Shown here piece after piece: positions 57,001-60,000 of a stretch of DNA of 64,000 bases (positions are counted from its first letter, which is position 1; each line of letters starts with the position of its first letter). Location: IMG/VR virus record IMGVR_UViG_2718218172_000010. The stretch is one strand, 5' to 3'. The position numbers are program-made. This stretch comes from a virus. Taxonomy: Duplodnaviria; Heunggongvirae; Uroviricota; Caudoviricetes.

Positions 57001-60000
57001 AACAGAAAGGTTTTACAGCAGCATTAAACTGATTTAGTTAACGTAAAGATTTACTAAACTGGATGTGTATAGCAATGCTTAACGAAAACACTTGTAGAAG
57101 TGTTTATGAAAATACGTGTATGTCTGGTAAAACACTTAGTAGAAAATACGTGTATAACACTTACTGAAATGCTTAGTAAAAATACTTAGTAAAATACGTG
57201 TATATAGTATCATACCGACATTCTCAACATCTTCAGACTTCCATACATACTGGGTGTTAATTTTTCACTTTTACAGCCAGCATGGAGTTTTCTGTCCTAA
57301 AAACAGAGCAGATTTACTCTGGAGTTATTTTCCTGTTCACGTATTCAGTACAGCAGAAATCCCGTGATAACGAGACAGTAAACCATCGTAATCAGCGTCT
57401 GTAACTCCATCGCTTTACCCCAGAAAAGTTAAGCCATATAATGTGAGGGATATAAGTCGTCGTATCCGGTAAGTACAGATAACCACAACATAAGCTCATT
57501 CAGTAAATTTTATCTCTGAACAAACGACTATGGCATGCTCATTTATACTATTCATAAGAAAGTGTGATTATCTGTAAGCATTAACCATCAAATCATATAA
57601 CCATACTAAACTGGCGGATCATCAGCACCATTAGCAGGTAACTTATTGAAATTTTATTATGTGTTTTTTGTTGATAATTAATATGCAATATGAATTTGCT
57701 ATTTTAGAATCATGAACACCATTTAAAATTACCATCATTAATATCATATAAAAATATATTTTTACTAAAACATGAATTGTATATATTTATTAGCTCAGGA
57801 AAATTATCAGGGTTCACCTTCAAATTAACCTGAATGTTATGCTTAATTTCACCCAGTAGTTCTTCATGTGTGGATTTTATTATCCCATTATTATAATCGA
57901 TAAATGCACACATGTTTTTTATGAATTCAAAACCTTTTCCTGTATACAGTTTAATGAATGCCACCAGAGCAAACATTTCAAGATGTAGCCATAATGCTAC
58001 GTTAGTTTTTTGCAAAGTATAAAAAATTGAATTCGCCACTTTTTTACTTATTGCTCTTTTATACTGTGATCGAGCAAGATTCAGTAGCGGAAGCTCTCGT
58101 TCAATAAATGAATGTGAAAAGACTGGATAAATTGATGTCGGAAACCTTTCAGGCCTTATGATATTTTCTATTTCCACCATAAATCTATCCATAGAAAGAA
58201 AGTCACTTTCTTTTTTTATTCTGGTATAGAGACCGCCTTTATTCCTTTCTGAGGTTTGTTTTCGTGCTATCCCCCCTAACAATTTCTCTAATTGTTTATT
58301 TATCTTCGTATAATTAAATACAACCATTCTTCTTATCATCCTCGGAAGGATAATAATATCAGTGCTTGAATCACTTGAACGGCAATTATTATTTATCCAT
58401 GCAACTTCAAGTTGCAGTATCGGAACATTAACTTTTCTGGGGTGAATATCACTCTGATATCGTTTTTTGTATGCGTTTTCATTAAGATATTCTCTGCTGT
58501 AGAGAAACTTATAGCAATATAATCTGATAATATCTTTTATGTAAAATTTAAATAGTTCACCTGTAACAGATATATGTTTTCTGCTCAGTAACTCCTGTGT
58601 ATTAAGCCATTCCCGTGACCGAAGCACACCCTTGTGAAAACTTTTTCTTACTTGCTTTGAGGCACGGCATTGATGTAATATTTTTGCGTCCTCAATAATT
58701 CTCTTTCCCGTTTTATTTTTTGCAGCATCTCTTACTCCATAAAATATCTCCCGGCCCAGACTTTTGTCATATTTACTGATTATACGACAAATATTCCTGA
58801 CCCGACGATTCTCTTTATTTCGCTTCCATAGCTTATAATGATCATCGCATAACCTTAAGGCATTTGCCTCATCAAATTCTGAAACAGGATTACTGCATTT
58901 TTTATTCCGACAAATACCTTTGTTTTTAGCCATACTCTTCTTCCCGTCAATGGAAAAATTTTCACACCCATATTACCTGAATGATAAACCGGATTAGTGT
59001 GATCCGGTTCAGTGAAATCAACAGGATAACGGTATGTCATTCAGCCATTCTTCCCTCTCCGCACAAGTGAAATCATATCTGACGTTTCTTCCTGAAGAAA
59101 TTCGCCAGAAAATCCTTGAACATCTCCACGGTGTTATTCATTACGAACCCGTGATTGGCATGATGGGTAAAAGCGGCACCGGCAAAAGCAGTCTGTGTAA
59201 TGCCATTTTTCAGTCCCGTATCTGTGCCACGCATCCCCTGAACGGCTGCACCCGCCAGGCTCATCGTCTTACCCTGCAGCTCGGTGAACGCAGAATGACG
59301 CTGGTCGATCTGCCCGGCATTGGTGAAACACCGCAGCATGATCAGGAATACCGAGCGCTTTATCGTCAGTTACTGCCGGAACTGGATCTGATTATCTGGA
59401 TCCTGCGGAGTGATGAACGTGCGTATGCTGCCGATATTGCCATGCATCAGTTTTTACTGAATGAGGGCGCAGATCCCTCGCGCTTTCTGTTTGTTCTCAG
59501 CCATGCCGATCGCATGTTTCCTGCTGAAGAATGGAATGCCACAGAAAAATGCCCGTCCCGTCACCAGGAACTCTCACTGGCGACAGTAACAGCCCGGGTG
59601 GCCACCCTGTTCCCTTCATCATTTCCGGTACTCCCTGTAGCCGCACCTGCAGGCTGGAACCTTCCAGCGCTGGTGTCACTGATGATCCACGCGCTGCCAC
59701 CACAGGCAACCAGCGCAGTTTATTCACATATCAGGGGGGAAAACCGCTCTGAACAGGCCCGGAAACACGCACAACAGACTTTTGGTGATGCCATCGGGAA
59801 AAGTTTTGACGACGCCGTTGCCCGGTTCAGTTTTCCGGCCTGGATGTTACAGCTTCTGCGTAAAGCCCGGGACCGCATTATCCACCTGCTGATCACACTG
59901 TGGGAGCGTCTGTTCTGACACACTCACGCCGACAGGATGTGTCGCTGGATTAACGAGCATTCTTCTTTTTATGAAATCATGCTTAAAAATCAGATAATTA

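What the first reader, a model, noticed from the sequence alone, without database searches (positions are those of the whole stretch)
57088..57205. Iteron-like direct repeats in a 1.16-kb ORF-free AT-rich intergenic region
Three exact copies of AAAATACGTGTAT, each preceded by related ACACTTAGTA-like motifs, are spaced 34 and 48 bp apart between convergent genes. Arrays like this are typical of replication-origin iterons, partition sites or regulator-binding arrays; on an integrative island they could be a vestigial origin or a binding array for the WYL or Myb-like regulators nearby.
Basis: seen in the sequence. Interest (0 to 1): 0.5.

Follow-up and report, generated by a model that had tools for sequence, protein, structure and literature searches.

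The report
Repeat array beside island Rep-like gene
The three repeats are real and belong to a degenerate 13-bp repeat array in a non-coding stretch carried by a common family of E. coli genomic islands, always next to a gene for a DNA-nicking replication-type protein; it is probably a protein-binding site, but its function is unproven and it could be a neutral repeat.

Summary
AAAATACGTGTAT occurs exactly three times (57109, 57143, 57191) and is the only 13-mer in the window with three local copies.

- **Structure.** The copies sit in a degenerate ~13-bp array (57086-57208) with two box types: B, the dyad ATAC-GT-GTAT, and A, AAYRCTTAGTA.
- **Context.** The window is an E. coli pheV-type island. 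The non-coding core (~56901-57335) occurs in 1863 of 5426 complete E. coli genomes. It always lies between a YagK/YfjJ ("inovirus Gp2") gene and a variable cargo slot followed by a YfjP-like GTPase.
- **Neighbour.** The Gp2 protein has intact HUH and YxxK motifs. Its model resembles parvovirus NS1/AAV Rep origin-binding nickases, and its dN/dS is 0.35.
- **Variation.** Arrays are modular, with 31 arrangements and 2-4 B boxes.

Limits:
- Conservation between islands does not exceed that of synonymous sites.
- No phage, plasmid, Rfam or literature match was found.
- RNA-structure evidence is weak.
- The Myb-like ORF and the WYL gene are missing from some or many islands that keep the array.

Best reading (about 0.35): a recognition array for the adjacent HUH nuclease, an origin or oriT overlapping a rightward promoter. 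Rivals are a regulator operator array and a neutral VNTR. Interest is moderate.

The parts
57086..57208 (+). Whole repeat array: eight boxes of about 12-13 bp, all in one orientation. Three composite A+B units plus two extra A boxes.
   Evidence: Sequence; repeat families D1, D2 and D9; TRF period 13, 5.2 copies at 57129-57194.
57109..57121 (+). B box 1, AAAATACGTGTAT. Its core ATAC-GT-GTAT has 4+4 dyad symmetry.
   Evidence: Exact match.
57143..57155 (+). B box 2, AAAATACGTGTAT. This is the B box most often intact in related islands.
57191..57203 (+). B box 3, AAAATACGTGTAT. Many islands have ATATGTGTAT or ATAGGTGTAT here. It overlaps the TATAGT hexamer by one base.
57087..57097 (+). A box variant AACACTTGTAG. 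It forms the 5' arm and loop of the local hairpin AAACACTT-GTAG-AAGTGTTT (57086-57105). The hairpin is only partly conserved in other islands.
   Evidence: the only helix kept in the centroid folds; for variants.
57131..57141 (+). A box AACACTTAGTA.
57156..57167 (+). A box variant AACACTTACTGA.
   Evidence: family D9.
57168..57178 (+). A box AATGCTTAGTA.
57181..57191 (+). A box AATACTTAGTA.
57203..57230 (+). Segment directly after the array, nearly invariant among islands. It holds a -10-like TATAGT (57203-57208, no recognisable -35), the palindrome GTAT-C-ATAC (57207-57215) and CCGACATTCTCAACAT (57215-57230).
   Evidence: Alignments; the consensus promoter scan did not call a promoter here.
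57209..57335 (+). Post-array conserved segment. Homology between islands stops at about 57335, where the variable cargo begins.
   Evidence: identity 0.86 then 0.77, falling to 0.56 beyond 57335; RNA structure tests weak or inconclusive.
57304..57331 (.). Terminator-like hairpin CAGAGCAGATTTACTCTG, followed by a T-rich run on the + strand and by TTTTT on the - strand. It lies at the edge of the conserved core.
56901..57085 (+). Left half of the conserved non-coding core. Blocks: the palindrome CTTTACGTAAAG (56900-56911) and its partial repeat TTAACGTAAAGAT (57038-57050), AAAGGTTAAAC, TTGATTGCTTAAACA and TTTACTAAACTGGATGTGT.
   Evidence: family D5; shared core = query positions 355-786.
54615..55346 (-). 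243-aa YagK/YfjJ ('inovirus Gp2') HUH nuclease gene. It is the constant left neighbour and the proposed cognate protein.
52684..54288 (-). YfjI (DUF3987) gene downstream of Gp2 on the same strand. This is the type of replication protein called 'primase' in phage satellites.
   Evidence: PMC10803314.

Best explanation
The repeats are a DNA-level protein-binding array. It belongs to the conserved non-coding control region of a CP4-57/PAI-type E. coli island backbone. I think it most likely serves as the recognition (iteron-type) array for the adjacent YagK/YfjJ HUH nuclease.

Proposed mechanism, all inferred:
1. Several protomers bind the same-orientation A and B boxes, whose B core is ATAC-GT-GTAT.
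2. The enzyme is thereby positioned next to the nearly invariant segment GTATATAGTATCATACCGACATTC, or to the hairpin at 57304-57321.
3. One strand is nicked there, starting rolling-circle replication of the excised island, or its transfer, rightwards into the anti-restriction / DUF932 / RadC module.
4. As in geminivirus and pMV158 origins, the same array would also act as an operator for the promoter-like TATAGT it abuts.

Shown: the repeats, their modular polymorphism, the constant linkage to the Gp2 gene, and the HUH character of that protein. Inferred: binding, nicking and any replication or transfer.

The broader claim, a functional protein-binding array with any partner, I put at about 0.6. 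The specific HUH-origin claim I put at about 0.35.
For: - **Not chance.** It is the only local triple 13-mer in 64 kb. TRF finds a 13-bp array.
- **Units older than the exact copies.** The three B boxes are identical at 13 of 13 positions, while the rest of the units differ in length (21, 21 and 35 nt) and align only in part. The B core has 4+4 dyad symmetry (sequence).
- **Constant linkage.** Every related locus examined has the order Gp2 (-), core, cargo, GTPase (+). This covers 13 E. coli chromosome or plasmid loci and those of the 44 metagenome contigs long enough to show flanks.
- **Precedent.** From established knowledge, those enzymes recognise tandem direct repeats beside their nick site.
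- **No competing array.** No other repeat array lies near the Gp2 gene.
- **Pattern in distant relatives.** Gp2 loci in Morganellaceae, Brenneria and an unassigned contig keep the divergent Gp2 / cargo-GTPase-antirestriction-DUF932 layout. Each has its own, different AT-rich direct repeats in that intergenic region.
Against: - **No excess conservation.** Mean pairwise identity of the core is 0.83-0.88, against 0.89-0.92 at four-fold degenerate sites of the flanking genes. B boxes mutate between islands about as often as spacers. Comparative data therefore do not show constraint.
- **Distance.** The array is about 0.9 kb from the Gp2 start in islands without the 176-aa ORF, and 1.75 kb here. 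That is far for a Rep origin.
- **Dyad symmetry.** A dyad-symmetric 10-mer suggests a dimeric regulator more than a monomeric Rep domain.
- **No nick site identified.** The local hairpin at 57086-57105 is not conserved, and single-strand folding is unremarkable (z -0.5).
- **No similarity to known sites.** Nothing matches any plasmid oriT or origin, or any phage.
- **No deep homology.** The core profile finds nothing significant in distant Gp2 loci or in the second non-coding region.
- **K-12 paralogs lack it.** yfjJ and yagK have no comparable array.
- **No known replication.** To my knowledge no island of this family has been shown to replicate or to mobilise itself.
Confidence: 0.35

Rival explanations
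1. Operator or activator-site array for a transcription regulator other than the HUH protein. Candidates are the island's AlpA/Vis-type protein, a small dimeric repressor, or an H-NS-family protein. Cooperative binding to the phased boxes would control a rightward promoter whose -10 is TATAGT (57203-57208). That promoter would produce a short transcript ending at the 57304-57331 hairpin, or a transcript running antisense into the cargo gene.
For: - B box 3 overlaps TATAGT by one base, and the next ~25 bp are nearly invariant.
- The lack of a -35 fits an activator-dependent promoter.
- A hairpin with a T-run lies exactly at the end of the conserved block.
- The dyad B core suits dimeric regulators.
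- An AlpA gene is in the island at 49455-49691. From general knowledge, excisionase/Cox/Vis-type proteins bind arrays of direct repeats about one helical turn apart.
Against: - The consensus promoter scan did not call this site.
- Near-invariance of short blocks is expected at about 10% divergence.
- No regulator gene is adjacent in all islands: the WYL gene and the 176-aa ORF are dispensable.
- The small annotated ORFs next to Gp2 have no DNA-binding domain.
- No box occurs elsewhere in the window, for example near regulator genes.
Confidence: 0.25
2. A neutral minisatellite (VNTR) or relic. A 13-bp unit was amplified by slippage and reshuffled by unequal recombination. The three perfect copies are a recent homogenisation in this haplotype, with no function.
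For: - Copy number and module order vary freely: 31 arrangements in 58 loci, with 2-4 B boxes.
- Most islands sampled without regard to the motif have only 0-2 exact copies.
- Conservation is no higher than at synonymous sites.
- B boxes are not clearly better conserved than spacers.
- Nothing homologous is detectable outside this island family.
Against: - The array has a two-level structure, with two box types interleaved and unequal spacers.
- The B core has dyad symmetry.
- The B boxes are perfectly identical while the rest of the units have diverged.
- The array sits in the divergent control region beside a Rep-type gene, and distant relatives have their own repeats at the same place.
- Every array examined keeps at least one B box with no more than one mismatch.
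Confidence: 0.25
3. The functional unit is an RNA. The array is only the upstream region of a small non-coding RNA or leader of about 115 nt, from about 57214 to about 57331 on the + strand.
For: - The conserved block ends in a terminator-like hairpin.
- The single-sequence fold is slightly better than shuffles, z -1.9.
- The RNAalifold structure has 5 pairs with changes on both sides; 10 of 500 shuffles reach this with 13 sequences.
Against: - The consensus energy is only -5.3 kcal/mol for 132 nt.
- With 29 distinct sequences no new compensatory pair appears, recombinant haplotypes break the outer pairs, and 30 of 500 shuffles reach the count.
- The structure was derived from the same alignment it was tested on.
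- No Rfam family matches even at E up to 5.
- The 40-aa ORF at 57282-57404 is not conserved: the aligned reading frame has an early stop in L008 and the ATG is lost in L009 (sequences).
Confidence: 0.07
4. A theta-type iteron origin served by the YfjI (DUF3987) primase-helicase-type protein, as in P4, PICI or SaPI origins; or a plasmid-style partition centromere.
For: - YfjI is encoded 2.8 kb to the left.
- DUF3987 proteins are the replication proteins of phage satellites (PMC10803314).
- The region is AT-rich.
Against: - From general knowledge, satellite origins lie immediately 3' of, or inside, the pri/rep gene. Here that position is occupied by a different repeat-bearing non-coding region, 51146-52683.
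- In many islands yfjI is not next to the array.
- No convincing DnaA box was seen by inspection of the sequence.
- No ParA or ParB genes are present, and the boxes are 12-13 bp rather than 17-22 bp.
Confidence: 0.06
5. One reading: a binding array for the nearby WYL-HTH regulator (60121-60801) or the 'Myb-like' 176-aa protein (56016-56546).
For: Both genes are within 3 kb in this window. From general knowledge, WYL regulators bind repeats near the operons they control.
Against: - The 176-aa ORF was found in only 13 of 44 related metagenome loci, and only 2 of the E. coli islands fetched have it annotated. Arrays persist without it. It has no Pfam domain.
- The WYL gene is absent next to the GTPase gene in L007 and L009, where the next gene is 97% identical to the gene that follows WYL here, yet the array is present.
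- A WYL protein encoded by another island in the same genome, acting in trans, cannot be excluded.
Confidence: 0.04

Closest known systems
Double-strand origin of rolling-circle plasmid pMV158 (RepB, an HUH initiator, with its 11-bp proximal and distal direct repeats)
   Different: No nick-site hairpin or conserved nick sequence is identified here. The array is 0.9-1.75 kb from the gene. The element is a large chromosomal island, not a plasmid. Replication has not been demonstrated.
Parvovirus/AAV origins (NS1/Rep binding to tandem ACCA or GCTC repeats) and geminivirus common regions (iterons beside the Rep promoter TATA box)
   Different: The repeat unit here is 12-13 bp with a dyad core, not 4-8 bp. 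There is no terminal or stem-loop nick element. The protein shares only about 10-17% identity with these enzymes. This is a bacterial island.
Iteron origins of P4, PICIs and SaPIs (primase-helicase or DUF3987-type initiators)
   Same: Same general class of integrative island, with AlpA, a DUF3987 protein and a P4-like backbone. Both have repeats in an AT-rich non-coding stretch.
   Different: The position is wrong: it is not 3' of the pri/rep gene, and a different non-coding region (51146-52683) occupies that place. The boxes are shorter, no AT-rich spacer separates two iteron sets, and there is no sequence similarity to phages or plasmids.
Cooperative operator arrays such as R1 parC (11-bp iterons around a promoter), P2 Cox / P4 Vis boxes, and omega-repressor heptad arrays
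   Same: Both consist of many short same-orientation boxes roughly one helical turn apart, lying directly against or over a -10 element. Copy number is variable.
   Different: No ParM/ParR, Cox, or ribbon-helix-helix gene is adjacent. The binding protein is unknown, and the promoter is unverified.
Bacterial VNTR / minisatellite loci
   Same: Copy-number and module-order polymorphism between strains, with no excess sequence conservation.
   Different: The array has a two-box hierarchical structure with a dyad core and a fixed position in a control region.

Membership tests
HUH-initiator origin (rolling-circle dso or oriT) | An HUH nuclease with intact metal-binding HUH and catalytic Tyr motifs is encoded in cis. 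| tested here: met
HUH-initiator origin (rolling-circle dso or oriT) | Initiator-binding direct repeats lie in the adjacent non-coding DNA. | tested here: inconclusive
   The repeats exist and are the only array near the gene. Binding was not tested, and the array is 0.9-1.75 kb from the gene.
HUH-initiator origin (rolling-circle dso or oriT) | A conserved nick site, usually in or beside an inverted repeat. | tested here: inconclusive
   Candidates are GTAT-C-ATAC at 57207-57215 and the hairpin at 57304-57321. The 57086-57105 hairpin is not conserved. Single-strand folding is not unusual. No nick consensus is known for this family.
HUH-initiator origin (rolling-circle dso or oriT) | Supports replication or transfer when the initiator is supplied. 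| not testable with these tools
   Requires experiment.
Theta-type iteron origin (plasmid, P4 or PICI style) | Iterons of about 17-22 bp, an AT-rich unwinding element, DnaA or IHF sites, and a position at or next to the initiator gene. | tested here: not met
   Boxes are 12-13 bp. No convincing DnaA box was seen by inspection. The region directly 3' of yfjI is a different non-coding stretch.
Partition centromere (parC / parS) | An adjacent parA/parB or parM/parR operon, autoregulated by the array. | tested here: not met
   No such genes appear in the annotated 41-kb neighbourhood or among the Pfam results.
Sigma-70 promoter with operator array | Recognisable -35 and -10 hexamers with 16-18 bp spacing. 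| tested here: not met
   Only a -10-like TATAGT is present, with no -35. The scan did not report the site. An activator-dependent promoter remains possible.
   The 176-aa ORF is absent from many islands that have the array. The WYL gene is absent next to the GTPase gene in L007 and L009.
Described RNA family (Rfam 15) | A match to a covariance model. | tested here: not met
   No hit at the gathering threshold in the window region. Only two chance-level eukaryotic snoRNA hits (E 0.68 and 2) fall in 55800-59200, none in the array.
Structured non-coding RNA (undescribed) | Covariation supporting a conserved fold. | tested here: inconclusive
   Five pairs show changes on both sides. 10 of 500 shuffles reach this with 13 sequences and 30 of 500 with 29 sequences. 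The structure was derived from the same data.
VNTR / minisatellite | Tandem unit with copy-number polymorphism between strains. | tested here: met
   TRF array; 31 arrangements in 58 loci. Meeting this feature does not exclude function.

The most novel reading that the evidence does not exclude
The array, together with the invariant segment and boundary hairpin to its right, is the cis-acting origin (dso or oriT) of the YagK/YfjJ HUH nuclease. If so, the very common CP4-57/PAI-type 'cryptic prophage' islands of E. coli would be rolling-circle-replicating or self-nicking mobilisable elements. Their anti-restriction / DUF932 / RadC module would be a leading region, and the variable cargo slot would start exactly at the nick-proximal boundary.
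Probability: 0.2. Interest if true: 0.7.

Novelty: new member of a known kind. Interest (0 to 1): 0.35.

Why it matters
About a third of complete E. coli genomes carry this unannotated non-coding module. It sits in islands that deliver virulence, defence and toxin-antitoxin cargo, and how these islands move and replicate is largely unknown. The module lies beside a YagK/YfjJ protein that is a y-gene of unknown function in K-12, and that proves here to be an intact HUH nuclease. If the array is that enzyme's recognition site, it would give a concrete, testable handle on how these islands replicate or are mobilised: binding, nicking, and copy number of the excised circle. It might also help explain why unrelated cargo genes sit immediately to its right. 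If it is only a VNTR, its use is as a typing marker for island lineages.

Tried and rejected
- **Rfam.** A gathering-threshold scan of the whole window and a permissive scan of 55800-59200 found no RNA family at the array.
- **Single-strand promoter or ssi hairpin.** Single-stranded DNA folding of 56880-57340 on both strands gave z about -0.5, so nothing of this kind.
- **Hidden gene.** No conserved stop-free stretch exists in the core across 45 distinct sequences. The aligned frame of the 40-aa ORF at 57282-57404 has an early stop in L008 and the ATG is lost in L009. Small annotated ORFs near Gp2 have no domains and are poorly conserved.
- **Mimicry of phage or plasmid sites.** Sensitive blastn of the core against 50,697 phage records found nothing. 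Against 72,556 plasmids it found only three captured island fragments. The paired-motif scan of viral contigs found nothing.
- **Metagenome scan for the paired motif.** Of 93 loci, 44 are the same island context. The other 49 are unrelated tandem repeats in other organisms and say nothing about this element.
- **Deep conservation.** Local alignments gave suggestive short matches:
  - AGTAT(C)ATACCGACA upstream of K-12 yagK;
  - a gapped match in a Morganellaceae locus;
  - GATTGCTTAAMCAGGAAG in Brenneria.

  A profile HMM of the core finds nothing significant in those loci (E of 1 or more). I treat these matches as chance.
- **Paralogous module.** The 16-nt resemblance CCGMCRTTCTSAACAT between this region and the second non-coding region (52147) was found post hoc. 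Smith-Waterman gives z of about 2.4, and nhmmer finds nothing. Rejected as evidence.
- **Literature.** Nothing was found on the motif, on YagK/YfjJ function, or on an sRNA at this position.
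Full report
**Observation**

The window holds three exact copies of AAAATACGTGTAT at 57109, 57143 and 57191, spaced 34 and 48 bp apart. No other exact copy exists in the 64 kb. The two 2-mismatch matches elsewhere are what shuffles predict. It is the only 13-mer with three non-overlapping local copies in the window.

The copies are part of a larger array, 57086-57208. Tandem Repeats Finder.2 copies of a 13-bp unit at 57129-57194. By eye the array resolves into two related box types, all in one orientation:
- B boxes, AAAATACGTGTAT, whose core ATAC-GT-GTAT has 4+4 dyad symmetry.
- A boxes, AAYRCTTAGTA, exact at 57131, 57168 and 57181, with variants at 57087 and 57156.

The surrounding 1163 bp (56547-57709) has no ORF of 60 aa or more, GC of 0.32-0.40, and convergent flanking genes.

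**Where it is**

The region is 100% identical to E. coli strain cq9 and lies in a large island next to the yghD/gsp locus. At least part of the 1164-bp query matches in 1863 of 5426 complete E. coli genomes, up to 7 places per genome. The shared core corresponds to window positions ~56901-57335.

In every related locus I fetched the order is the same:
1. A 243-aa 'inovirus Gp2 family' (YagK/YfjJ) gene on the minus strand.
2. 1.3-2.4 kb of unannotated DNA containing the core.
3. A slot with unrelated genes: 407 aa here; 376 aa, 262+316 aa or 339 aa elsewhere; none with a Pfam hit.
4. A YfjP-like GTPase gene, usually followed by a WYL-HTH gene.
5. DUF905, DUF932, ArdB/KlcA-type anti-restriction, RadC/JAB, DUF987 and CbeA/CbtA genes.

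This covers 13 E. coli chromosome or plasmid loci and those of the 44 metagenome contigs long enough to show flanks. The three plasmid hits are captured island fragments. K-12's CP4-57 has no homologue of the core.

**The neighbour**

The Gp2 protein matches Pfam YagK_YfjJ_C and REP_ORF2-G2P. An alignment with relatives down to 19-48% identity shows an invariant H-Y-H followed by hydrophobic residues, and an invariant Y-x-x-K. These are the HUH and catalytic-tyrosine motifs.

- SIRV1 Rep, a Helitron transposase and AAV5 Rep.
- A REP-associated tyrosine transposase, the pMV158 RepB OBD and CRESS Reps.

Among islands its dN/dS is 0.35, against 0.16 for the GTPase, so it is constrained but not tightly. 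The 243-aa subfamily is essentially confined to E. coli. The next gene on the same strand is YfjI (DUF3987), the type of protein treated as the primase of phage satellites (PMC10803314).

**Variation of the array**

Across 58 loci there are 31 distinct arrays. They are built from the same modules in different numbers and orders: B boxes separated by GTCTGGTAAAACACTTAGTAG-type or AACACTTACTGAAATGCTTAGT...-type spacers. There are 2-4 B boxes when one mismatch is allowed. This is the pattern expected from unequal recombination between boxes.

In 15 islands sampled without regard to the motif, exact ATACGTGTAT copies number 0-3. Common variants are ACACGTGTAT, ATATGTGTAT and ATAGGTGTAT. The middle box is the one most often intact.

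The array always ends against a nearly invariant GTATATAGTA(T/C)CAT(A/T)(C)CCGACATT. This contains a -10-like TATAGT, with no -35, and the palindrome GTAT-C-ATAC. Homology between islands then continues for about 120 bp. It stops at a terminator-like hairpin with T-runs on both strands (57304-57331), where the cargo begins.

**Is it constrained?**

The comparative data do not show that it is.
- Mean pairwise identity among eleven islands is 0.83-0.88 across the core.
- Four-fold degenerate sites of the flanking Gp2 and GTPase genes are 0.915 and 0.889 identical.
- The wide occurrence therefore reflects the spread of a young island family, not purifying selection on the non-coding DNA.
- B boxes differ from consensus at about 4% of sites and spacer modules at 1-10%, by a rough count.

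The arguments for function come from inside the array instead:
- The three B boxes are identical at 13 of 13 positions, while the remaining parts of the units differ in length and align only in part.
- The B core is a dyad.
- The array has a two-level organisation.
- It is placed in a divergent control region.

Distant Gp2 relatives (36-42% identity; Morganellaceae, Brenneria and an unassigned contig) keep the divergent Gp2 / cargo-GTPase-antirestriction-DUF932 layout. Each has its own, different, AT-rich direct repeats there. This fits a protein-specific site but is anecdotal. K-12 yfjJ and yagK have no comparable array.

**Alternatives tested**

- *RNA.* No Rfam family matches. RNAalifold gives only -5.3 kcal/mol (+ strand) and -6.2 kcal/mol (- strand) for 132 nt. 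The single-sequence fold has z -1.9. On the predicted + strand structure, 5 pairs change on both sides. That count is reached by 10 of 500 shuffles with 13 sequences and by 30 of 500 with 29 distinct sequences. The added recombinant haplotypes break pairs rather than add compensatory ones. I call this inconclusive, leaning negative.
- *Single-strand DNA structure.* Folding is unremarkable.
- *Coding.* There is no conserved reading frame.
- *Mimicry of a phage or plasmid site.* No similarity was found.
It was found in only 13 of 44 related metagenome loci and is annotated in 2 of the E. coli islands fetched. The WYL gene is missing next to the GTPase gene in L007 and L009, which keep the array.
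- *Partition.* No par genes are present.
- *Theta-type satellite origin.* The expected position, directly 3' of yfjI, is occupied by a different long non-coding region (51146-52683). That region has its own polymorphic repeats and occurs in 1572 genomes.

**Interpretation**

I rate 'a functional DNA-level protein-binding array' at about 0.6.

Within that, the best-supported specific model (about 0.35) is that the boxes are the recognition array of the adjacent HUH nuclease, placed beside its nick region and doubling as operator of a rightward promoter. This is the arrangement known from pMV158 RepB, parvovirus NS1/AAV Rep and geminivirus common regions (general knowledge; structural kinship). 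The genes to the right are of leading-region type, which would suit transfer or replication proceeding rightwards. That step is inference only.

Counts against this model:
- The distance from the gene.
- The dyad symmetry of the B core.
- The absence of an identifiable conserved nick hairpin.
- The lack of any evidence that such islands replicate.

The main rivals are an operator array for another regulator such as AlpA (0.25) and a neutral VNTR (0.25).

**Novelty and interest**

I found no description of this motif or module in the searchable literature, and it is unannotated in RefSeq. It is a new member of a known kind of feature rather than a new kind. It is of moderate interest because it is so widespread and sits next to an uncharacterised HUH enzyme. 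The interest would rise sharply if nicking or binding were shown.

Noticed in passing
window 51146-52683: A second long (1.5 kb) unannotated AT-rich region lies directly 3' of yfjI (DUF3987) and 5' of a 188-aa YagK/YfjJ paralog (50579-51145, -). It is found in 1572 of 5426 complete E. coli genomes. It has its own repeat array (~51990-52100; GATAGAG / GAGTGAGTA units) with insertion-deletion differences between islands. Its position matches where PICI/SaPI-type origins lie. No significant homology to the main region was found.
   Followed up: partly
window 57710-58933 and the equivalent slot in L003-L013: The slot between the conserved core and the GTPase gene carries unrelated genes in different islands (407 aa, 376 aa, 262+316 aa, 339 aa). 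None has a Pfam hit. This looks like a cargo hotspot, possibly for defence genes.
   Followed up: partly
window 54615-55346, 50579-51145, 49760-50332: The island encodes two clear YagK/YfjJ HUH-type paralogs (243 aa and 188 aa, about 19% identical). A third ORF has a weak YagK_YfjJ_C hit (E 0.03). An AlpA gene lies at 49455-49691.
   Followed up: partly
window 1557-1735 (+), 14744-14919 (+), 40115-40200 (-): Rfam matches above gathering score: the RalA antitoxin sRNA, the sok antitoxin RNA and sRNA-Xcc1.
   Followed up: no
window 44123-44222 and 61223-61322: Two runs of 100 N (masked sequence). The second falls where strain cq9 has an IS66-family element.
   Followed up: no
window 11172, 30436, 48345: The 13-mer ACCGGGAAAAACC occurs three times, dispersed over 37 kb.
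   Followed up: no
window 21962-22032 and 27214-27306: Tandem repeats of 36 bp (2 copies) and 42 bp (2.2 copies) reported by TRF. I did not check whether they lie in coding sequence.
   Followed up: no
L016, L017 (species-representative genome collection): The only two hits for the Gp2 protein in that collection are short contigs labelled Bacillota/Bacillus MAGs. They carry E. coli-island DNA at 84-86% protein identity, most likely from contamination of those bins.
   Followed up: no
window 55810-56676 (approximate): The segment carrying the 176-aa ORF is an insertion relative to most related islands. In those, homology to the window resumes at about 56677, roughly 460 bp from the Gp2 start codon.
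   Followed up: partly
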